This document shows positions 6,614-64,000 of a stretch of 64,000 nt of DNA, in pieces. Within the stretch, counting starts at the first letter, position 1. Each line of letters opens with the position of its first letter. The stretch is from assembly GCA_012026655.1 (NCBI GenBank), contig JAAILG010000053.1:62001-126000 (forward strand), given 5' to 3'. Source of the DNA: Hydrolagus affinis. Taxonomy: Eukaryota. The position numbers and the translations under genes are program-made. The notes under the pieces were generated by a model, which ran no database searches, was not told the DNA's origin, and saw only the letters and a list, made by a program, of their open reading frames with translations.

Positions 6614-7343
6614 CTTTTACTTCTTTCTCTGAAATAGTTTTGTCCACGTCAACAAACCGCAAAGGCGACGCATCTTCTGCAAAGTGGGGCTCCCGTTCGT
6701 CTCCATTCTTTGCGGGTTCTTCGTGGCCCGGATCGCTCGAAACCGTCACGCTTGTGTCCTTCCCACCCGGTTTTGAAGAGGATAACGTTGGTGGCGCGGC
6801 GAAGGGAGGGTTGAAGCAACTGCTGGATTGAACCGAGCACTGCGCAGCGAGCGGCTGCAGAGGGTTGTAATCCGTGGTCTTGTTTGATGCGTAGGTTGCG
6901 TTGGGACGGAAATACCTTGGTACAGAAACTCTACCACTGTCACCAGAGCAAATTTCCGACAACCTCGGGTAAGAAGAAACGCTTGGTGGCGTCTTCGGGT
7001 GTTTATCTCCATCTAACAAGCAATAGTTCCCTTCCTCCTTAACGCTGGGCGCGAAAGAACAGCTACTCGTCTGTTGGAGTCGGTCTGCCTGGCTGGGGGG
7101 TGGCTGATTTACCCAGCCTACCATCGCTGGCACGTAGTGGTGTGGAGCCAAGCCTATACCTTGCTGCTGATTCATCCCTCCCTGTTTACGCTGTGCAACG
7201 CCAACTTGCCAATTCTGTAACCCGTGGCTCTGCTCCGATCTAAAGGGCAAATAGCCCCCAGAACAGTAAGGTTCCGGTCGGTTGGGGCAAATCAAGGAGC
7301 TCACTGAAAACGAGCTGGAAGCAGAATTCTCGGAACATGACAT
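6614..7343 (-). CDS. hoxb10: Hoxb10 exon 1
   Basis: The ORF begins MSCSENSASSSFSVSSLI and contains SCSFAPSVKEE and VPRYFR, motifs typical of Hox10. Donor AAG|GTGAGT at 6614/6613 is phase 1 and matches exon 2. The spliced product is 333 aa with a 4430 bp intron. Confidence 0.92.
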
Positions 7344-20040: not shown

Positions 20041-21265
20041 TAAAAGTTAAGGGGGAATGGAAAAGGATTTGTCTTTGACCTATATATTACCAATATCGTT
20101 AATAACAGAGCTGCGGCCCATAACTTCTTAAGTGAATTATTAAAATGTGCTACAGATCAAGAGATATATTGAAATCAGAATTCCTTAAAATATTGGTTAA
20201 ATAACAACAACAACAACAACAACTTCGATTTAACAAGTTCTTCTCCCAGTTCTGCACAATAATACAGACAATGTATTATTAAATAAGCTTGAATTTGTAT
20301 TTTCCAGTCGTATCATATACGAAGACATAGTAATAATGACTCAACTATAAATAATAATAACTTAACATTCATTCCAATATTCCAGGGAAATCTCGGAGTG
20401 GCGGTTTAACTTTGTTAAAAAAAAATCTTGTGTTGGAACTCACAAAAAAAAACCGTATTGGAAATGAAATAAGCATCAAAATTGAATTGGTTGAAATGTT
20501 TGCGCATAAGCAAGTGTATTTATTCTTTTACTTTATGAATTGATTTTGTTGCATTGAGTTGTTTAATTAACTGAAGGCTGAAGGGGACGAATGAGGTGAC
20601 TGTGTTGTGAATCTCCCAAATCAGATTCGGAAACAACATGTAGCCCAACCATTTTTATACTTTTTTCGTAAGTTTAAACATTTCAAATATATTAGTATCC
20701 CTTTGTACTGTAAAAAAAAGGAGTATAGAGCACACCCTTTCAATAGTAAACTGAAAAAAATATGCAAAGTGTGTTGTAAGTCGCTTGTTAATATATACTG
20801 CACCTTAAATGCATTTCAAAATTACTTTTCAGGTTAACAGTTAAGGCCTCGTTTGTTTTCAACTGTTGTAGCACACAACACAAAATACATTGGTATTGAT
20901 TTTAATAGCATACAATGGCCTTACTTTGCTTTGGTACACAGTTCAACTGAACTGCAGCCTCAGTGACATATAAAGTAATGTGAATAGAATGAAGTTAAAT
21001 TGCGCACATAGCACGTCTGTTTAGAAATATTTCAAAAACAATATGAAATACTTAATCGTTTAAATAGATGGATCAACAACTCCAGAAATGTTAATCTAAA
21101 GATTCTTCGATCGTTTCTCGCGGGTGGGGGAGGGGGGGTTGGAGACTACAGACACACACACACACACACGAATGATAGCTGTGTGTAGAGTGATTCATTT
21201 TATTGCAGTGGCCGACAGCTACGTTGCTATATTTTTCGAACCTGAAAGCAAATTTTCACCCAGTC

Positions 21266-22353
21266 ACAGCACTGAATATGTATCTGCCCTTTCTCTTTTC
21301 ACTCAGCGATTATTTGAAAGGAAACCTACTTACTTGCAATTACCTTCGGGTTCCCGGGTTAAAAGCTGCTGTCGTTTTCTCCTTTGTTTGTGCAGGCTCG
21401 GAAGAGCTTGATTTCTCTCCCACCCCCTCTCTACCGATTTGGTGTTTGTTAGCAGAGACTTTTTTTTGTCAGCTTGCAGTCTGTCCTCACATAAAATTGA
21501 CACAGACAGGCCATAAACTGTCTGGCTGCTGTGTACACGGCATGTAGAACGCCTACAGAAATACCTCTTTATATATTTAGACCCTCTCACAAACCTGCAA
21601 CCGAGAACATGATTTATTTCAATGCAGAATTAAATTTATGCTTTTTTTAAAAATGAAATCCTGTTATTTGTTAGCCGGTAAAGTTTACGAAAGAAGACCT
21701 ACAAAGAAGCATGGAACCATCCCTAGCTGTACATTGTACTTGATCATGGATGTGTTTGTGTGACTGCAAAGTTCAAGACGTCTTCAGATAATGTCAATAT
21801 TGTTTGGTTCAAAAATCCACATTCTGTTTCTTTTAAAAGCAAGGAGGGAAGGAAGGAAGATTTTGTTGCAAATTAACTAGCTCTGCTGGTGATTTGAGCT
21901 GTTTATTAGCGTATCCTGGAGGCAACACACCACAAATGGTTGAACTTCTCAAGTTTTTTTCCCCTTTCCTCTATTGTTTTTCCCCCCCGGAGTTCCTAAC
22001 CTTGAAACGGCTCCAGACTTAAAACTTATTCCCTGGGCGCATTCTCCTGTCGGATTTATTTGTCGCTCTGAGAAGCGTTTGAAAGCCACTCTTTACCACT
22101 CTTTGAGAATGTTTACCGTCCTGGTAACTCTGCTGACAATCACAGTCCAGTGAAGCCGTTTGTTGTTGGCGGCTGTTGACTCTGTGGTGGTTTGCTGATG
22201 GGTAGAGAAGTCCTTCGGGGATTTTTTTTCGGGGCAAACAAAGCTTTAGTGCAAAGATAATGAAATTTACTTCATTAAAGTCATGGGTTTTCTTGTCGGT
22301 TCATCAAGTTAGTTGGATGTGGCAGAATAAAAAGAAAACTAGACTGAATACAT
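21266..22353 (-). pseudogene. Decayed Hox11-type gene (putative hoxb11 pseudogene)
   Basis: Degenerate homeobox: AAA AAA AAG TCT CTG CTAAC AAA CAC CAA ATC ([11 protein letters not shown], 21467-21436); SLHKQRRKRQQL aligns ungapped to SVYINKEKRLQL (21398-21363); TTT CAA at AAT CGC TGA GTG AAA a GAG AAA (FQNRRMKEK, 21319-21290); an RDRLQYY-like tail to 21266. Upstream in order: MYLPSCTYY-like (22353-22327), PMT (22287-22279), EVxF (22273-22262), YxSA..HR (about 22204-22178), VGKNG/GFDRFFE-like (22099-22066). Confidence 0.7.
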
Positions 22354-27358: not shown

Positions 27359-29228
27359 ATATTTCCTAGATGGCTCCAAACATTATGCAAACATTATACT
27401 GGAAACAGAAAATAGAATTTAAAAAATCACAATAACTGCACTTACTACAATAAATCCCGCAAAGCTCTTCAAAGGATTCCGAAATGTGCTACATTAAATA
27501 TGAGGATTTTTCTTTTTTCCTAAACCAAACTACAGACTGTCAAAGATGCATCATGTCGTAGGATAAGACAATTTTGTTTAGTTGAGCTGAGTGGTGCATT
27601 TTGCATGAATTTCACAAAAATGTTTGAGTTGAGATTAATTACGATCCAGTAACAATGAGTTCTAAAATTAATACCTCTATTACAATTCTGTATAATTTAT
27701 TTCCATTAAAGACAATGAAAAAAAGTCTAACTAAATTTTCATCCCCCACAAATATCTTATACCTTTTGTATGAGATAATTTAATCTGCAATCAGACCACA
27801 TTCTTTGAACTTTTATTTGGTGACACCCAGTTAATATTGATGGAGGTTAACCTTGATTTTGGTGATCATTAACAGCTTCCTGAAATTCTGAGAAGCTTGT
27901 GAGAAATGTCTATGCATCAGTGTAAATGAATCAGTTTCTGTCTCTACCATATTGTCTTTACATGTGTTTCTATTATTTTCATAGTATCAAAATATAAGGT
28001 TCTTTTCTCTCTGAGAAAAAAAATCACTCAACACGGGTTAGTTGTGAAATATTTCCAATAGTTCTGTAAACACTGCAATGAAATAGTATTAGAATGAATT
28101 CCATTACAGTAAATACAGTTACGAAGAACATTGTCACACTGGATCCACATAACAATGAACGCAGTGATAATGAAATATTTTATGAATATTGTTGACATTG
28201 AGTTTTATTGTAATATTCTTTACTTTGAATTCCTATTGTACTTCATTCTTAAACCACCTTTAAGTAACGCAATTACTCTGTGATATTAAATAATCAGTAT
28301 TCTTACTCCAGAGTTAACTATAATTTAGTGCCGTGAGATTTTGAATTATTTTTTAGTTAGTAGTTATCGCAGTAAAATGTCCATAGTTTGGTTCATTTTA
28401 ATGATTTTTCATACAACAAATAATTTGTTAACATAAAATTCAAAGATAATTATATATACCGGTAGTTTATAAATGTAAATTTCCATTGACAGTTAAGATG
28501 GACATACATTGAGAGTAGCTCTCTTAATTAAGATTTTTTAATGAATTTTTTGTTCTAACTTTCTTGGAAAACTCTTTAAAATAATATTAATGCTTATCTA
28601 AACAACTGGAACTTTCAGTTGAAAACTGATTTGCAGAAAATGCCAGTTTAGGTTATTCACTTAATGTTGGGTGCCCATAGTAAATCTTTTTAAATTACTG
28701 AGCCCAATTAATGGTTAATCAGATGAAAGGTTGAGGACAAGTAGAGTGGTTTCAAACAAGAAGTCTCTTCTAAAATAATGGGTGGGACAATTACTTTGTG
28801 AAATTATAATTGCTCCTTTGTGATTTTTATTTAGCAAAGTTGCACTAGGGTTGAGATATTGAAATCTGGCAGCTTTCTCCGTGACTTTATTGAATAAATG
28901 AATAGCTGAGTCATGGAGGTCCCAGGAAGTGAGATTGGATTATCGTCTGAAAACAGTTAAATGATATTAGTTGGTAGCACAATGAGTTCTAAAATTGGTT
29001 TAATCATTGAAGTACTGTTATGTTACTCCTGGTTGCCAACTAATAATTGTTCTGTCAAGATATTGAATAAAAACTGGAGAAAGGAACCAATGGCTGTGAT
29101 TCTTTATGGTGATACAGCCTTCCCAAATTTTATTGTTATAACTTTTTTGGAACCCCTTTAGAAATAATATTGATAATGAACATTACAGGACTAAAACAGG
29201 TTGTTTCACCTGCACCAAATTTTGCTCC

Positions 29229-29663
29229 CCTATTACCCTAGTCCTTGCCAGACTTCACTGGCTCCCTATCCCAGAGAGGATTGACTTCAAGATCCTCACC
29301 CTTATCTTCAACTCCTCTGCATTCTCTACCTCTCGGACCTCCTCTCTCCTCAAACCAGTTCCTGTTGCTTTTGCTCCACTGGGTCTGACCTCCTCCATGT
29401 CCCCCGAATCCTCTGCTCCACCCTCAGCAGCCGTGCCTTCAGCCACTGTGCCCCAAGGCTCTGGAATTCCCTCCCTCACAACCTTCACCTTGCCCCTCTT
29501 TTCTCAGCTTCAGGTCGCAGCTGAAGATCTTTCTCTTCGACCGCGCCTTTGGTCACCTTTCTACCCCTACTCCTGGCTTGGTTCCGGGATCTGCTATTGT
29601 GAAGTGCTCTGAGACGCCGTCCAGCGTGGAGGGAGCTATATAAATCAAAGTCATTGTTGTTGT
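29229..29663 (+). mobile_element. L2-clade LINE 3-prime fragment
   Basis: Translates ITLVLARLHWLPIPERIDFKILTLIF and AFSHCAPRLWNSLP (L2 ORF2 C-terminus). Ends TGTGAAGTGCTCTGAGACG...GCTATATAAAT followed by (TTG)n. Confidence 0.85.
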
Positions 29664-47019: not shown

Positions 47020-47332
47020 AATATTAATCCCTGCATTTGACATAGCGCTTTCCGCGTCTTCCAGACGTCTCAAAGCGCTTCACAGAATATACTGTAGAGT
47101 GAATTGGCTGTGTATTTGTGGGCGAAAACGCGGTAGCCAATTGCGCACAGCAGTGTTCCACAAACAGTCGTGGATTGAAATGACCAATTTATTATAGTTT
47201 TGGGGGGAGGGATTAGTAATCGGCGTGTGGAGTAAGAAAACTTGCCCAAGGTTTCGCCCTGACCTGCCTGGATTCGGACACAGATCTCACGCTTCTAAAC
47301 CGAATGCTCTAACCATTGAGCTACAGGACTCC
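47020..47332 (-). mobile_element. tRNA-derived SINE, full length, possible 10-bp TSD
   Basis: CpG-rich copy that looks young. GTAATAATCT flanks it at 47004-47013 and 47334-47343. Confidence 0.9.
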
Positions 47333-55077: not shown

Positions 55078-55325
55078 TTAAGTCGTGTTGCTCTTTACTT
55101 TGGCCACGATTTTCTTTTCTTTGACCCTCCTGTTCTGAAACCAGATGGTGATCTGTCGTTCGCTGAGATTCGTAGCTGCCGAAATCTTCCTTCTCTTGTC
55201 TTTTGTGATAAATTTGTTGGTTCCGTATTCCCTCTCCAGTTCTTTGAGTTGAACTTTTGTGTAAGGGATTCTTTTCTTCCTTCCACGGCGAAATTGACCA
55301 CCGTCCTGTTGGTGACCCACCACAT
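55078..55325 (-). CDS. hoxb13: Hoxb13 exon 2 (homeodomain)
   Basis: Reads [83 protein letters not shown] and AKVK are HOXB13-type residues. The acceptor is tandem CAGCAG (55331-55326). TAA at 55080-55078. Confidence 0.95.
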
Positions 55326-55659
55326 CTGCTGTGTGTAGGTTAGCCACGCAAAGAAAGACACATTAAAAAAAACTCATAGTAATTAAATTTTTTTTAACAG
55401 TATCTTTACCTTTTATAAACTCCCAGGGTTTAAAATTTAAAACAAAAAACGATTTGTTTCAAAATACAAATTTTCCGTTAGCGCTGCCACACGTATAACT
55501 ACCATACTGCAAGCTGCACTCGGCATATTTTCAGAAATAATTTCTGTTGCTGTTGATACCGATTTATTTTCACAACAAACAGGAGGAAGCGTGCGCCGAT
55601 CAGCGCCCGAGATCACGTTTCTTTACTACGAAATAACACAGAATCCGATTAATTATTAC

Positions 55660-56335
55660 CTGCCAATGGGGACTTCCAGAGGTGAGCCGGCTGTGTTTGT
55701 TCTTTACAGTACATCTGGCTGTTCCATCCATTGAGGGCCCAAGGCTGGTAGCTGTCCATAGGTAACAAAGCCTCGTGCCTCGGCTCTCCTGCCCCACTAA
55801 TGGTCTGCACTACCGAAACGTCCAAATAACTTGGCATGGGCTGGTACGGGCCGGCGTAGCCGTGGTAAAAGGCGAATTCCTTAGCCCGGCCTGGGTAGTC
55901 ATCGGTGGGCACTGGAGTGTCCATATATTTGTCTCCCGGATAATTCGACAAGGCGGCAGGCTGGGTGCAAGACTTAATGGGACCTCGACCCATTCGGCAC
56001 GAGTAGTAACCGCTGCCGAAATAACCGTATGGCAAAGGGGCGGCGGGAGAGCCCTGGGGAAGGGGCGGGCAAGGGGCACATTGCTTACCGGGCTCCCCTA
56101 CCCCAGAACCGGACATATCGATCGTGGAGTAACCGGAGCCATGAACCAAAGGTGCGGGGTGTCCTCCCAGCGCCGAGTGAGCCATCAGATTCCTGCATTG
56201 ATTCGCGGAGAAATTCCCAGTGTTGACGAATCCTTCCATTACCCCGCTATTCTTTTTAATCTCATTCAAGTTATTATCATACACGAACATCACAGAGTCG
56301 ACCCAACGTGGCTTGAGAACCAGTGAAACTGTCAT
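55660..56335 (-). CDS. hoxb13: Hoxb13 exon 1
   Basis: Starts [21 protein letters not shown] (Hox13 N-terminal motif). Contains [36 protein letters not shown] and GWNSQMYC. Donor CAG|GTAATA at 55660/55659 is phase 1. Intron 334 bp, protein 307 aa. Confidence 0.94.
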
Positions 56336-56349: not shown

Positions 56350-59300
56350 TGGATCTATGGTTTCTTTTAAGAGACTGTAGACGAGAAAGCGATACAGAAT
56401 TTCTTCCAGTGAACAACACTGACGTACTCACCCAGGTTAAAGCAACACGCTCCCTCACTGGCTCCTGGTTGTTCACGTGATATGCAAAGCACTTAATAAA
56501 CCCCAAATACAGAATTGCGAAAGAGAGAGAGAAAAGTTTCATTGCCAGCGAGAAATCCCTAGGCGGCACGTGTTCATTACAGGGAATTGCATGGAGGAAC
56601 TATATCAAACAACAGGCTACGATATATCAATTAAACACACACATGAAATGAACCTAATTTTCCATGCCAGGAAAATCCGGGCATGAAGTTCATTTAATAT
56701 GTCCATTGCATAATCCATCCTTTATCTGATTAAATTTACAAAGACTTGTTTCCACGGTTGAACGTGAATTGAGTTCCCGCTCGCGTTCTTTTTCGACTAT
56801 TATCTATTATCCCCCATCGCTATTTTAGTTAGTTTGAGCTCCATTTCAGCCTCTTTTCTTCACACAGGTCATTAATGTGAAAAGTAAAACCACAAGCAAA
56901 GCTTTTCGGTGAAAGAACACATGTTAAAAACACCGCACACGCACAAAACAACAACACCAAGAGCAGGCCTGCGGTGATTACGTTATTTTGTCTGTGTTTG
57001 AGATGTCATGTGTTTGTTGGCTATTTCTACCAGTCCTTTTCATTACCTTCGTGAGACTGTTTTAAGTTTTGATGCGGGTCTGAAGACACCGAAAATAATA
57101 CGTTGCTCGATGGGATTTGAAATAAGCATTTTCCACAATGAAAAGTTACAAATGTTGGAATATACCAGTGTATTTCCAAGGAGCGCTGAATGCCAATTAT
57201 ATAATACCATAACCACAACGTATCAACTTAAATGTCCAAACAGTGGCTAAGGTGTATTGCTCTCCATAAAACCTCTTCGATGTTTTAATTTTTCACGTAT
57301 GTTACAATACAGTATACCTAGAAGGAAATCTGTACTATATATAAATTATACATCTCAACACTATTGTGATTTTCCTGTGATATTTATACCTCCGGTTACA
57401 CCAGTGAACTTTCATTATGTTGTCAACAAACCGATTGTACTCAATAAAGTCTTAGTAATTGACAGAGAGATTTATATCAGGTTTTGATGTTCTACTATGA
57501 TTATATTAAAGTCGTGTTAGCTTTTACTCTCGAATATTTAACAGGGTTACCCTAACGGTCCCTTACACACACAAAAAAAAGCAATTTCTTTCTATTTTCC
57601 TATCCGATACTTATTTGCAAATTGGATGCTTTTCTCTCTTTAATTGGATTGAGTCACGTTGGAGTAGTTAGTTCAGAAGCCATTTAGTTTCTCAACTATG
57701 CCAACTGCATGGATATCACTATTCGCCTGATTACTTTCACATACATTTTCATTTAACTATAGTTCAAATATATATGGTTGTGATTATTACAATGTAAAAT
57801 ATATAGATTCAAAATGCACTCCCTTTAAGTCCAATATTTTATCGCTACTCCTTTATCAGAAACTAATGTGATTCTATCCAAATTTCTCAGGATACGTTTA
57901 TAAATGCTGCTATGTGGCTACACTGCCAAGTAGGCTGTGCTTCAATGTTAACTGGTTTAATTTCCAAATTAACTCACATTTAACCATGGAGATTTTGATT
58001 GAATATTGGTCATTAAAAAAAAGAAAATTTAAAAGACATTCGAATCAGCCCTTTCACTTGATTGATGTGGTTGAAGAGTGTAAGACAATAATATTTGTTA
58101 ACTTGTAACCAAGATACACTTATTATTCTTTCAAAATGCTTGGAGATTATCTTGCTTTTAGAATATCGCAGAGTGAATCCATTAGTAAGAAATATACATT
58201 TTGGATAAGCCCTATGTGCTTAGTTGGCATAGTACACCTTGGAAGAATGAACGAGTATTTTATTGATGACGATAGAACAATGTGCGGTACTTATGCAAAC
58301 GTTAGATAACGAGAGCATCAAATAAAGACAAATGTGGTGACGTTTGGAGATAATGCTGCTTCGGGTTGAGCAGGAAAGACAGAAGAGAGTGTAATTGGAC
58401 AATTGTACATTTTACAACTAAATTCGGACAGTCAGTTGGTTCAGTAGCGTTGAGTAAGTTATGATGTTGAGACAATATTTTACATGTATAAATGCATCAA
58501 TTCCACAATCCTGAGAACGAATACACCGATTAATGCCTCCTCTTGAATGGTAAATGAACAGCAATTAAAAATGTCCAGTCCTACTTATTTTTCCAATTGC
58601 TACACAAACCCCGTGCCGCCTAATGGATTTTCCATTAAGACCACCCCAATAAAATGATGCATATGCATTAACATGCCAATAACACTACATGGAAAAGATT
58701 ACGACTAGAAATAAACTATTGAAGTAGGATATTTAAAATATATACATTATATATTTTTAAAACCATGAACAACATATGAAGCGAAATTTCACGAAAGTAC
58801 CCATCATAAGGCTGTGCAAGTATATCTTGAAATAATTATTTTATTAACAGCAAGCTCTAACTCGGTCTCTTTTAACTACTTTAAGAGATTTGGGATGATC
58901 CAATACCTTGAATATCCCCGTATCTTATTGTACTTTTGCTTCTGATGAGGAATGGGGCAAAATACCAAACCAGACTTACTCTGGCCTGGGCTGTGCCACT
59001 AAACTGCTTTGTTTTATTAAAAATAGCCTTATCAAAGAAATCACAAGTAAACTGTTCAGTAGACCTTTACTTCTCTGAGGAATTCCACGTGTCTTTCGGT
59101 ATATAAATGTAATGTGTTTTTGTTGTTGTTAGCCTACTTCTTATCATTACAGTGTGAAAAACTCAGAGGACCTCGGTGTGTCACGTTTTTAGCTGTTATT
59201 GTTCACCCTTTTCCCCACCAAGTTACACATTGAATATCCGAGAATAAAATATGTTGATTTCCACTCCACATTAACGATTAATGTTAATCAATCATTACTG

Positions 59301-59484
59301 TGGACAACGAAAGTTCCAACCTTAAATTGAGGACTGTGATTAGACTGTGGTTAGTAGAAGGTTGAGGGACGGGTTCTGGTGGTGGTGGGAGGGGGATGGC
59401 TTATGCGGGAGAAAGTTACGCCGAACTTGAGACAGAGGCAATTTAACACAGAGTGGCCTTTTTTACATACGGTTCAGACACGGC

Positions 59485-59505
59485 TGAAGGCCAAGGTCAA
59501 GGTTA
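59485..59505 (+). promoter_or_regulatory. Triple DR0 nuclear-receptor element
   Basis: TGA-AGGCCA-AGGTCA-AGGTTA. Confidence 0.45.
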
Positions 59506-59603
59506 CAGCTAAGAGTCTAGTCACTATGAGGCCTGTCATTCAGGTCCTTTTACAGTCCTGTCTGAGCCGCATCAAAACAAAACCCTTTGTCGCTTCAGTG
59601 ATT

Positions 59604-59644
59604 CTTTTCTTAGCTCAGACAACGATTCGGAAGCCAATAATGAC
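59604..59644 (-). pseudogene. Possible Hox14 last-exon (helix 3) relic
   Basis: GTC ATT AT TGG CTT CCG AAT CGT TGT CTG AGC TAA GAA AAG resembles VKIWFQNQRQKEKK, mostly by single-base codon changes. Order and strand are correct relative to 60971-61089. Confidence 0.35.
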
Positions 59645-60043
59645 CATCTTGCAGGAATCGCGGACCAGTGCGAGACACATTGGTAAAACAAGCCCTTTTT
59701 TGAAAAACAAAAACAGTTTACAAATGATTTTATACACTGAGGTTTGACCATGACACTGGGTATCAGCGGATCAGCATTTGCAAACCCCAAAGTATGAAAT
59801 ATCACGAATAAGACTTTTATTCACAACACCGTTTCTGGCTCCAAACTATAAAAATTATTAAAGAAATGTCATTGGTGTTCATGCAGTTTGAGAATTCTAT
59901 CGCATGCACAATATTAAGGGCACGTTATAGCTGCATCTAAATGTGTTTCACACCAATCTGCCGACGAGACATAGCTGAGCCAATGCACCAGCCTGACTGA
60001 AGTCCTGTCTGTTAAAACTTCAAGATATGAAACCTAAGACAGA

Positions 60044-60064
60044 AGAGAGAGAGAGAGAGAGAGA
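60044..60064. repeat. (AG)n microsatellite
   Basis: Seen directly. Confidence 0.9.
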
Positions 60065-60970
60065 AAAACAGCACTGATGTTTTTCAGTCATTCACTCAGG
60101 TACTGCCGACATTTTAATGTATCCTTACTTTTATTTTTGCGTGTGATGTATGTACGGTTCGGGTATAAATGTGTGCACTGTCAATGGCATGAGCCATTTG
60201 CGAATGTCTCAGTGTGTGTAAAGGAGTATATTTCTCTATGCTAGCTCCTTGCTAATTAATTATTGAATCAATTGTTGTACTGTCTTTGGGACACGATTAT
60301 TTGTGTTAGCAACTAACCGATAAGTGTGAGGTGAAATTGCTTAACGTGAAAACTTGATTTTTCCCAACGTTGCTTAGGAAGTTGGATCATGGCAATTTGC
60401 AATTGAAACTCAGAAAGGGTTAACAACGTAGCTGAAAAATGAAAGCACCCTTTTCCCATTGATAAATCACCCTCCATAACGCCGAATCACTGTTATAGTG
60501 CAGTTAATAACGAAATCTGGGAATGATCATCCAGCAAAAAATTGGCCTTTTTTTTCTTTTTTAGAAAAAGGTTTAGTTAGATGCATAATCTTATATATGC
60601 TTCGTGTTATAAATCCCGGTCTAAAGCCAGTTAATAGGCCCAATACTGTACACCAGTTAGATTGGAGTGGGGGCACATTGATATACGTTCTTCATTTTTT
60701 TGTCATGAAATGCGTTTTAATGTCGGCTTTCAAATTTAGAAAACGTGCCCGAACGCTCATCATAAACGACCCAGCTATACAACACAAACTAAATATTTGT
60801 TTCTATAAATAGACATCATGTCTCTTCCCCCAATGTCTGCTGCCGACATTTAACAGTTCTTTAGACTGGGCGGTTAGATTTATATATTGATATATACGAA
60901 ATCGAAAGCATCGGGTATCGAAAGCTGTTTGTGAAAAATATTCCAAGGAAGAAAAGAAAAACAAAATCAC

Positions 60971-61089
60971 CTGGTTTATAACCTATTCGATGCGACGTCG
61001 GGTGTTGACTCTAATGAGAATCTACAGAACCTCGACTGTTTGGTTATATTCTGCTGTCTGGTAGGAGAGCTCTTTGTGCCCAATTGCCC
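60971..61089 (-). pseudogene. Probable Hox14-type homeobox 5-prime exon relic (putative hoxb14 pseudogene)
   Basis: KSSPTRQQNITKQSRFCRFSLESTPDVASN aligns ungapped to remembered Hox14 KRIPYSKQQITELERAFEENRFLTPEIRQN (9/30 identities plus D/E and V/I). It is bounded by an AG acceptor and a CAG|GTGATT donor, as expected for the Hox14 intron after homeodomain Q44. It carries an in-frame TAA. Confidence 0.5.
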
Positions 61090-61815
61090 CTGTAAATGAT
61101 TTAGTTTCCAATAGTAAACATAGAGGCTTTGCCCGACTATTAGACTTGGTGGAAAGTTGCTCATTGAAAAATAAATTGATGCAAAATTAATAAGTAAGTA
61201 TTTGTAGAGATTGAAATCTGCGCCATTATTATCAGTATGCAGTTGAACTGCCTCAATATGTACAAAGAATAAGGCCACGTTTTGCTCCTTAATCTCCTAA
61301 TCTCCATAATATATTTGTTGATATACGTGAATATGCGAGGTTTAAATATGCTCTATATTCTTACAAAAGGGTACAATCACTAGACCAAATTGATAGGTGT
61401 ATTTCTGAATACATATTTAAAAATACATACATTTCAATAATATTTTTCTGAAGCAATTCATTTGTTTAATTCGTGCTTGCTTCGGTTTCAATCCTTTTCA
61501 GATCTATTATAATATGTTGTATATCATTTACTAAAATATCTATTTCAACGCAATAATTCACATTTTGCTCCATTCAAAGTCAAGTGGCTGCAAAGTCAAG
61601 AATATGTAAATAAATGTAATCTTTTTAAAATATAAAAATTAATTTAACGATGAACCCAAATACCTTATTTTTAAAATAAATGTTTCAGTATCATTGAACT
61701 CCAGCCCGAACCACCCCTAGAAGACAAATTAGGTAACTGGCGCATTGGCCAACAATTAGAATACCTTCTAATATTAGATTTTTAAAAACTCGATATATTT
61801 TAATATATTTTATAA

Positions 61816-62113
61816 GGGCGAAACTTTAGGCAAGTTTTCGTATTCCCCACTCCTCAGCTTTCCTAGCAGTGAGTAGGAACCCAGTTGTTAATTAATTGTC
61901 GGATCGCTTTCTTGGGATAATAATCCCTTCAAAAAGAAAATTGGTCGCTCAATCCATGACTGTATGTGAGACACCGCTGTGCCCAATTGGCGGGCGAGTT
62001 TCCCCACAAAATGCACAGTCAATCCACTTTGAAGTATACTCTGTGAAGCGCTTTCAGAAGTAAGTCTCAACGACTTGATGAGATCAAATGCAAGGATGAT
62101 GATTATTATTATT
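61816..62113 (+). mobile_element. tRNA-derived SINE, 5-prime truncated
   Basis: AGGGCGAAACTTTAGGCAAGTTTT...CTGTGAAGCGCTTT...ATCAAATGCAAGGATGATGATTATT. Confidence 0.8.
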
Positions 62114-63109
62114 AATTATGGAACGGAATTGAGTTAACACAATATTCCTGACCAAGTGAAATAGATTTCATGTAAATTGACTTAGAAATGGAAATTCCGT
62201 CGTTAATGGCTGATGCACTCAATCCAGCAAATTGCTGAAATATCGATTACTCAGTATTCTAGCCTGAGTATATCCCGCTTGTTGGCATATCACTGCAAAT
62301 AAAAACAACCAACCGTATATCATGATTTATTTCCTGCCTCTATTTCACTGAAGTTTCTCTGCAAAACACGTTTACATTTTCGTAGCAAATAGGTTTGACT
62401 GACAGGGGAAACAGATTGCTTCAAGTAGAAGAGCAGCAATTGCGATCCAATTTCCAGTTGCATTTCATTTTCCAGTACATTCTCTTCAACTGAATTGATG
62501 CCTTTTAACGAAAAGGTCCAAATGATCGTATGATCTGTAAACTTCGTGTACTTTGTATTTAACTTTAAATGTATTTAACTCCAAGGGCAAAATCAGCAAA
62601 TAGACCCATAAATAGATGCAATAAATGAAATGGCCTTGGCCATTATATAATTTGCTGATTATTCGTGTCGTGCTCACAGGCAGTTCAATAACTGTGTGTA
62701 ACTGCGCTGGCTAACTTATGATAATTACCAAAGATGCCAAGTGTCACATGACATAATGCATATCCCTTTCAGTGATGAATAGAACGATATAAAAAAAACT
62801 TAGTAGACGAGGCAAAGGTTGTACAAATCTGTCCACCTAAATATCATAAATAATACTTCTGGAGCACAAATGGTATTTTCCCACAGTTATTAAAGAATTT
62901 CCGTATTGGTGCATCGCGTGTTTATTCAAAGAAAGGCATATTCTAGGGTTTTACAATTCTATTTTACAATATTCAGAGTAAGGATCATAAGGAATATTCC
63001 TTTCGCGTTTACATAAACCTACCATACAGCCTCGTATTTTCCCAAATATATGTTTGTTCGATTATCGAATGGTTTATTGGAAATAAAAAGGGAAACATGC
63101 ATACAAGGG

Positions 63110-63190
63110 ATAATAATTATAATCATTGCATTTAATGTAACGCTTTTCATGTCTCCTAGATATCTCAAAGCGCTTTACGGAATATACTAG
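63110..63190 (-). mobile_element. SINE tail fragment
   Basis: TTGCATTTAATGTAACGCTTTTCATGTCTCCTAGATATCTCAAAGCGCTT. Confidence 0.7.
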
Positions 63191-63470
63191 ACAAGGAGAA
63201 AGGAAAAGGCGAGTGTGAAAAAAAGGGGAAAAGTGAATTAGGGAGACAGACAATGAAAGAGAGTATAAAAAGAGAAAGTCAGACATACAGAGTGTGACAA
63301 AGAGAGCCAGTGTATGTGTGTGAGAGAGAGAAAAGGCGTGTGAGCTCTACCATACCCAGATTTGCTGGGGCTGTAGGTGGTTTCTGTTTACATTTGAACA
63401 CCCAATCACATCGTTTTGTGTGACTCGCCAATCAAATGGTCAAATAGATTTGGGGGCCAGACAGCGCTTT

Positions 63471-63485
63471 TGACCTTGAACTTGG
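63471..63485 (-). promoter_or_regulatory. Perfect DR0 element
   Basis: Reverse complement is CCA-AGTTCA-AGGTCA. Confidence 0.55.
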
Positions 63486-64000
63486 CTTCTAACAACTCTG
63501 AGCTTCCCAGTACTGATCGCAGATGCAGCATTATATCCATATGTGGAGAAAATATATACGAATATGCATATCTTTCACGTTAATAAAGTAGCGAGAAGGC
63601 CGATTGAAACTATCTGTGAACCCAAGCCTGTATACAGCATATGCTCTTAAACGATGTGCATATTTAACGTACATTATTCAGAGCACAGATGAGATATGTG
63701 GGTGTATGTCATCACGCAATATGGCGCGCAAGTCGATTCCCTTCCCCTTCCTTTTGCTCAGCGACTAACCCAGTCTTTGTCAAGCGCTCCGAGTTATTAT
63801 CCTGCGTTAATGGCGCTATATAAATGCAAGTTGTTGTTGATATTGTTGTTTATTGCACATACATGCATTAACGGTTTATAGAAGGAATGCTTTAAATCTC
63901 TGTCTGTCTGCTGGTATGCTAACTCCCCTCACACAAAGCAGCCAATGTTTGTTAGGTTGAATGAAACCCCACCCTGTTGTCTGGTAAATACGTGCTATGT

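What the first reader, a model, noticed from the sequence alone, without database searches (positions are those of the whole stretch)
59604..61089. Probable Hoxb14 relic with the Hox14-specific split homeobox
Seen: a 119-nt minus-strand segment between an AG acceptor and a CAG|GTGATT donor translates KSSPTRQQNITKQSRFCRFSLESTPDVASN. This aligns without gaps to the Hox14 homeodomain as I recall it (K4, P7, Q11, I13, T14, R18, T27, P28 and N33 identical; several others one base away). About 1.3 kb downstream, a VKIWFQNQRQKEKK-like remnant starts at a Val codon. Established: vertebrate Hox14 genes have an intron inside the homeobox between Q44 and V45 and lie directly upstream of Hox13. I recall a HoxB14 pseudogene being reported in elephant shark, so novelty depends on the species. 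Inference: these are exons 2 and 3 of a dead Hoxb14.
Basis: partly seen in the sequence, partly recalled or inferred. Interest (0 to 1): 0.75.

Follow-up and report, generated by a model that had tools for sequence, protein, structure and literature searches.

The report
Fossil Hox14 gene in a chimaera
Two decayed DNA fragments just upstream of HoxB13 in a chimaera (a ghost-shark relative) are probably the remains of a dead HoxB14 gene, a relic already reported from the elephant shark, and the same region also seems to hold a second dead Hox gene, possibly HoxB11.

Summary
The window is the 5' end of a holocephalan HoxB cluster. Its HoxB13 differs from Callorhinchus milii at 7 of 305 residues, so the species is probably another chimaera.

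Exon '2' has a stop and is 19 nt short before the donor. Codons 19-26 are unrecognisable. Exon '3' reads W-L-P-N-R-C, with Arg at 52, not the diagnostic Gln.

No Hox14 sequence could be obtained, so the Hox14-specific match is untested. With a Hox13/Hox10 decay model, exon 3 is the best upstream hit (7 of 500 permuted models) and its similarity stops at V45. Exon 2 alone is not significant; its support is a good helix-1 register before the only upstream CAG|GT. Best reading: a dead HoxB14 (0.75), already reported in C. milii.

More interesting: a whole-homeobox relic at 21288-21474, between HoxB13 and HoxB10. It beats 437 of 437 shuffles, but 46 of 958 permuted models reach it. It looks like paralog group 11, and I found no report of a HoxB11 relic.

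The parts
60971..61089 (-). Segment A: candidate decayed HoxB14 exon 2 (homeodomain about codons 1-33, then 19 nt short; stop at 60978-60976)
   Evidence: codons 2-18 gapless score in top 0.03-0.06% of about 110,000 registers, codons 19-26 at background; not significant alone
60965..60973 (-). Near-consensus splice donor CAG|GTGATT ending segment A
   Evidence: only CAGGT on the minus strand of 56400-64000; 2 matches to this 9-mer pattern in the window against 2.7 expected
59648..60970 (-). Candidate intra-homeobox intron, about 1.32 kb, ending in a pyrimidine-rich stretch and an AG three bases before the Val45 codon
   Evidence: acceptor model scores above the unsplit model
59601..59647 (-). 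Segment B: candidate decayed exon 3 (helix 3, codons 45-58), with a 1-nt deletion at codon 47, Arg at 52 and a stop at 56
   Evidence: best hit in the upstream 7.6 kb; 7 of 500 permuted models; 1 of 12 real tiles as high
55660..56335 (-). HoxB13 exon 1 (intact neighbour; fixes cluster and lineage)
   Evidence: 219 of 225 identical to C. milii HoxB13, next best hits sharks and rays at 81-82%; PF12284
55078..55325 (-). HoxB13 exon 2 with an unsplit homeobox
21288..21474 (-). Relic C, outside the finding: decayed, near-colinear whole homeobox, most like paralog group 11 (possible HoxB11 pseudogene exon 2)
6614..7343 (-). HoxB10 exon 1
   Evidence: ORF; phase-1 donor; start codon
1912..2183 (-). 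HoxB10 exon 2 with homeobox
   Evidence: matches the group-10 homeodomains printed

Best explanation
Segments A and B are the decayed second and third exons of HoxB14, a unitary pseudogene orthologous to the one reported in the elephant shark. Shown: both are non-coding today (stops, frameshift, deletion) and lie on the cluster strand, in exon order, 3.3-4.8 kb upstream of HoxB13. Inferred: the gene came from the early vertebrate genome duplications, was inactivated long ago (probably before this lineage split from Callorhinchus), and has since drifted by substitution and small deletion. It makes no protein and most likely does nothing; it is still readable because this DNA changes slowly.
For: B is the top helix-3 hit in the upstream 7.6 kb in all 10 model variants, reached by 0-8% of 300 shuffles and 7 of 500 permuted models. 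Similarity stops at V45: acceptor+45-58 scores 19.6 bits, unsplit models 16.5 falling to 1.6 (d=0.2). A ends at the only upstream CAG|GT, and 1 of 61 intergenic CAG|GT sites (A itself) has so good a helix-1 register at that distance. A recalled Hox14 motif at codons 27-33 matches with one mismatch in exactly this register. My rough joint estimate without the recalled motif is about 5e-4 (3 expected registers x 0.02 donor x 0.014 B x 0.5 order), post hoc. Literature: three exons and WFQNQR define group 14; C. milii has A14 and B14 pseudogenes.
Against: No Hox14 sequence was tested. A alone is at background (rank 103-151; 83-97% of 60 shuffles and 12 of 12 real tiles score as high). B fits Arg52 about 2 bits better than Gln52; 1 of 12 real tiles (up to 3 with the Gln model) scores as high as B. 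The recalled motif has 3 matches in the window against 2.0 expected. A plus-strand alignment over A reaches E 0.013-0.16 in tblastn, which shows the noise level. No exon 1 was found.
Confidence: 0.75

Rival explanations
1. One or both segments are chance look-alikes in AT-rich intergenic DNA, most plausibly A; the true HoxB14 remnant is only B, lies elsewhere, or is gone.
For: A is not significant alone; 9 of 30 identities is expected 0.12-0.30 times in this region; a plus-strand chance alignment over A outscores it in tblastn; one real tile matches B's score.
Against: Strand, order and spacing are right; A carries the only upstream CAG|GT and is 1 of 61 such sites with a helix-1 register; B is reached by 7 of 500 permuted models; a relic is expected here from C. 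milii.
Confidence: 0.13
2. The relic is real but comes from a split-homeobox gene of another posterior group, such as an old intron-bearing Hox13-type tandem duplicate.
For: Codon 52 is exactly Arg, and B fits the WFQNRR model about 2 bits better. The same intron occurs in lamprey Hox13beta and in amphioxus Hox11 and Hox14.
Against: A has only 3-5 of 30 identities to the Hox13/Hox10 rows and none of their codon 19-26 signal; B's Arg codons differ from HoxB13's, so it is no recent copy; two substitutions in one codon are unremarkable at this level of decay (inference).
Confidence: 0.06
3. It is dead HoxB14 as a protein gene but is still transcribed and spliced as a non-coding RNA under cluster control, like bowfin hoxd14.
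For: The donor is near consensus and both acceptors keep an AG although the coding sequence is heavily decayed. Bowfin hoxd14 is a spliced, expressed pseudogene.
Against: The splice sites were used to find the segments, so their quality is partly circular; gar hoxd14 shows no transcription; no expression data here.
Confidence: 0.15

Closest known systems
HoxB14 pseudogene of Callorhinchus milii (Ravi et al. 2009; seen only through review PMC3707753)
   Same: Same cluster, same lineage, same slot upstream of HoxB13, also a pseudogene.
   Different: This window is probably another holocephalan (7 of 305 HoxB13 residues differ). The published coordinates and sequence were not seen, so identity of the locus is inferred.
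Intact vertebrate Hox14 genes (shark and paddlefish HoxD14, coelacanth and lungfish HoxA14, lamprey Hox14alpha)
   Same: Split homeobox geometry, upstream of Hox13, same strand.
   Different: No open frame, no exon 1 found, WFQNQR not preserved (Trp and Asn exact, Arg at 52).
Holostean hoxd14 pseudogenes (bowfin, gar; PMC8423624)
   Same: Decayed group-14 gene with a splice junction still visible.
   Different: Cluster D, not B; bowfin keeps WFQNQR and is expressed; expression here is unknown.
Vertebrate Hox11 homeodomains (A11, C11, D11), for relic C
   Same: In the register fixed by the Hox13/Hox10 model, C has Ile13, Gln33 and Leu34 exactly and an Asn-Lys-Glu-Lys-Arg run at 27-31 with two 1-nt insertions, as in the group-11 rows printed (by eye).
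   Different: Lies in cluster B, where I know of no Hox11 (recalled); two stops and several indels; codons 37 and 56-58 fit group 12 better.

Membership tests
Vertebrate Hox paralog group 14 | Lies upstream of Hox13 on the cluster strand | tested here: met
   B ends 3,269 nt upstream of the HoxB13 ATG, minus strand
Vertebrate Hox paralog group 14 | Homeobox split by an intron (between codons 44 and 45; the exact position is recalled) | tested here: met
   Similarity of B stops at V45 and the acceptor model beats the unsplit one; A ends CAG|GT but is 19 nt short
Vertebrate Hox paralog group 14 | WFQNQR in helix 3 | tested here: not met
   Reads W-L-P-N-R-C; codon 52 is CGT, 0 changes from Arg and 2 from Gln; the likelihood gap is only about 2 bits in a decayed sequence. 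The relic is therefore filed as probable, not as a demonstrated member.
Vertebrate Hox paralog group 14 | Three exons, including an upstream exon 1 | tested here: inconclusive
   0 of 54 stop-free stretches in 61090-64000 hit a Hox family; no Hox14 exon-1 query was available, and the exon may lie beyond the window
Vertebrate Hox paralog group 14 | Homeodomain closer to Hox14 than to Hox13, grouping with group 14 in a tree | not testable with these tools
   0 of 94, 0 of 2 and 0 of 120 listed of 122 hits (all 76% or more identical to HoxA13) were Hox14; no supplement searched showed a vertebrate Hox14 sequence
Unitary pseudogene | Coding frame disabled in place, not retroposed | tested here: met
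   Stops at codons 36 and 56, a 1-nt deletion at 47, a 19-nt shortfall, intron retained
Hox paralog group 11 (relic C) | Unsplit posterior homeobox between Hox13 and Hox10 on the cluster strand | tested here: met
   187 nt aligned to 174 model positions; each third ranks in the top 0.08%, 0.3% and 0.02% of windows in register
Hox paralog group 11 (relic C) | Group-11 rather than group-12 residues | tested here: inconclusive
   One group-11 motif raised the score from 34.1 to 40.7 bits, 3 of 800 permuted models, but the motif was chosen after seeing the site; no full Hox11 or Hox12 profile was scored

The most novel reading that the evidence does not exclude
This chimaera HoxB cluster preserves two fossil posterior genes: HoxB14 and an unreported HoxB11 (relic C, 21288-21474). 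HoxB11 would then have survived long after the cluster duplications, late enough to be about as readable as HoxB14, and would have to be added to the inventory of the early jawed-vertebrate HoxB cluster.
Probability: 0.5. Interest if true: 0.6.

Novelty: new member of a known kind. Interest (0 to 1): 0.4.

Why it matters
The HoxB14 relic adds little: it extends a known elephant-shark pseudogene to a second holocephalan. It would allow the loss to be dated against the Chimaera-Callorhinchus split, given as about 187 million years in PMC12952989. Relic C matters more if it holds. HoxB lacks genes 11 and 12 in amniotes and, by my recall, in all jawed vertebrates examined. A readable HoxB11 homeobox would be direct evidence of when that gene died, and would make the origin of the long HoxB13 spacer testable.

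Tried and rejected
Obtaining a Hox14 protein failed in three searches: a profile of segment A plus HoxB13 gave 94 hits, none with a Hox14 motif (88 Hox13-like, 6 other), and two HoxA13 searches in short length ranges gave only Hox13 (the last 2 of 122 hits were not listed). Supplements of six papers were tried: one alignment file was cut before group 14, two FASTA files and one PDF could not be read, one paper had none held. For a seventh only the file list was seen. These unseen files, and Ravi et al. 2009 (not held), bear on the Hox14 comparison and on whether relic C is already in print. Plain DNA alignment to the window's own homeoboxes did not single out A or B. Pfam, the Atlas and the PDB found nothing relevant for A, B or C. 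Rejected: a plus-strand homeobox-like tblastn hit at 60891-61046 (wrong strand, rides on a purine run); B as part of an unsplit homeobox; the peak at 29413-29570, which lies in a repeat-like stretch; my first reading of relic C from the V-K-I-C-F-Q look-alike at 21259-21242, which scores 17.5 against 34.1 bits for the alignment ending at 21288.

Full report
Context. The window holds two intact Hox genes on the minus strand: a Hox13 (homeobox at 55284) and a Hox10 (2136). Exon 1 of the Hox13 is 219 of 225 identical to Callorhinchus milii HoxB13, with sharks and rays at 81-82%, and exon 2 differs at one more true residue. The C. milii cluster in the collection has two members, both isoforms of that one gene. 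So this is the 5' end of a holocephalan HoxB cluster, probably not C. milii itself (inference).

Observation. The gapless claim holds for codons 4-33 at most: 14 nt follow codon 33 where 33 are needed, and codon 36 is TAA. The acceptor is phase 0 to this frame, whereas intron 1 of both intact genes is phase 1. Segment B starts at a Val codon at 59644, has a 1-nt deletion at codon 47, and reads W-L-P-N-R-C-L-S-stop-E-K from codon 48. Codon 52 is Arg, not the Gln that papers give as diagnostic for group 14.

What could not be tested. I could not obtain a vertebrate Hox14 sequence. Three database searches returned none (0 of 94; 0 of 2; 0 of 120 listed), and no supplement showed one. Using 13 distinct Hox13/Hox10 rows as surrogate queries, 9 of 30 identities is expected 0.30 times per 7,600 registers, or 0.12 without stops. 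The protein match would be marginal alone even if correct.

Test with what was available. I built a nucleotide decay model from 17 named Hox13 homeodomains plus the window's HoxB10, allowing substitutions and indels. B ranked 2nd-3rd among non-Hox peaks on both strands of the window. It was the best hit in the 7.6 kb upstream of HoxB13 in all 10 model variants; 0-8% of 300 shuffles and 1-3 of 12 real tiles reached it, as did 7 of 500 codon-permuted models. Extending the model upstream of V45 lowers the score from 18.3 to 1.6 bits, and an acceptor raises it to 19.6 (d=0.2). That is the pattern of an exon starting at V45. Gln at 52 costs about 2 bits.

A is weaker. Alone it ranks 103rd-151st and is matched by 83-97% of 60 shuffles and 12 of 12 tiles. 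Its donor is the only CAGGT on the upstream minus strand, and it is the only one of 61 intergenic CAG|GT sites with such a register at that distance. A recalled Hox14 motif for codons 27-33 falls in the same register with one mismatch, although 3 matches against 2.0 expected is no excess for the window as a whole. My rough joint estimate without that motif is about 5e-4; it is post hoc. Against this, tblastn's best upstream hit is a plus-strand alignment overlapping A (E 0.013-0.16), which I treat as noise.

Mechanism. Shown: both segments are disabled and lie in exon order on the cluster strand, 3.3-4.8 kb upstream of HoxB13. Inferred: they are exons 2 and 3 of HoxB14, inactivated long ago and drifting neutrally (0.75). 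Rivals are chance (0.13), a split gene of another posterior group (0.06) and, as an overlapping variant of the best reading, a spliced non-coding transcript like bowfin hoxd14 (0.15). No exon 1 was found (0 of 54 stretches).

Comparison with what is known. [quoted passage not shown] The sterlet paper places the loss of hoxb14 in the bony-vertebrate ancestor (PMC7269910; passages). The primary paper, Ravi et al. 2009, was not held, so I did not see its coordinates. Searches for HoxB14 gave 0 papers with 'pseudogene' and 2 alone. The silver chimaera genome paper showed Hox passages on cluster C only (PMC12952989; passages). Also seen as passages: PMC3509897, PMC3038165, PMC8423624, PMC9495127 (59, irrelevant), PMC1845163, PMC5054437, PMC2746220 (it doubts a Hoxa14 gene in skate and horn shark) and bioRxiv 2024.07.20.604409 (85). 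Seen only as supplement searches: PMC6307216, PMC2842273, PMC13012124. The finding is a probable orthologue of a known pseudogene.

A second relic. Scanning the 47-kb gap between HoxB13 and HoxB10 with the whole-homeobox model gave one clear minus-strand peak. It aligns 21474-21288 almost colinearly, 187 nt for 174 positions. None of 437 dinucleotide shuffles reached it, and 0 of 1000 permuted models did at the site. The stricter gap-wide permutation gave 46 of 958, so with this profile it is only about P 0.05. Its three thirds rank in the top 0.08%, 0.3% and 0.02% of windows in register. By eye against group 9-13 homeodomains printed in a supplement, it has Ile13, Gln33 and Leu34 and a group-11 run at 27-31, while codons 37 and 56-58 favour group 12. 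Swapping in one group-11 motif, chosen after seeing the site, gave 40.7 bits against 24.4 for the next peak and 3 of 800 permuted models. The codons after 58 resemble the group-11 tail by my recall only; this was not tested. Pfam and the PDB do not detect it, and 0 of 79 upstream stretches hit a Hox family. A search for HoxB11 gave 9 papers, 8 listed, none titled on a relic; I read passages of one. That is thin evidence of absence, as most subscription papers are not held.

Verdict. Observation partly confirmed; interpretation probably right but not proven; novelty of the HoxB14 relic low (about 0.25 alone). The possible HoxB11 relic lifts the overall interest to 0.4.

Noticed in passing
window 21288-21474, minus strand: Decayed whole homeobox between HoxB13 and HoxB10, 13.9 kb upstream of the HoxB10 start; most like group 11, group 12 not excluded; possible HoxB11 pseudogene.
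   Followed up: partly
window 21242-21259, minus strand: A V-K-I-C-F-Q helix-3 look-alike just downstream of relic C, one mismatch from the consensus pattern; it also reads as a splice acceptor. Not part of the best alignment.
   Followed up: partly
window 60891-61046, plus strand: Homeodomain-like tblastn alignment on the opposite strand over segment A (E 0.013-0.16); treated as chance.
   Followed up: partly
window 7343-55078: HoxB13 and HoxB10 are about 48 kb apart with no intact Hox gene between them; Rfam found no microRNA in the window.
   Followed up: partly
window 61815-62119 and 63110-63188; tRNA-like hit at 47259-47330: Interspersed repeat copies, 70-87% identical to several sites in the gap; one lies beside a weak Rfam tRNA hit that ARAGORN does not call. 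Probably SINEs; they interrupt the region where a HoxB14 exon 1 might lie.
   Followed up: no
window 29142-29609, plus strand: ORF whose middle resembles, by recall, the end of a LINE reverse transcriptase; no Pfam hit. It gives the second homeobox-model peak on the minus strand.
   Followed up: partly
window 55325-55328: Tandem CAGCAG acceptor at HoxB13 exon 2, which would explain the 307- and 308-residue isoforms listed for C. milii.
   Followed up: no
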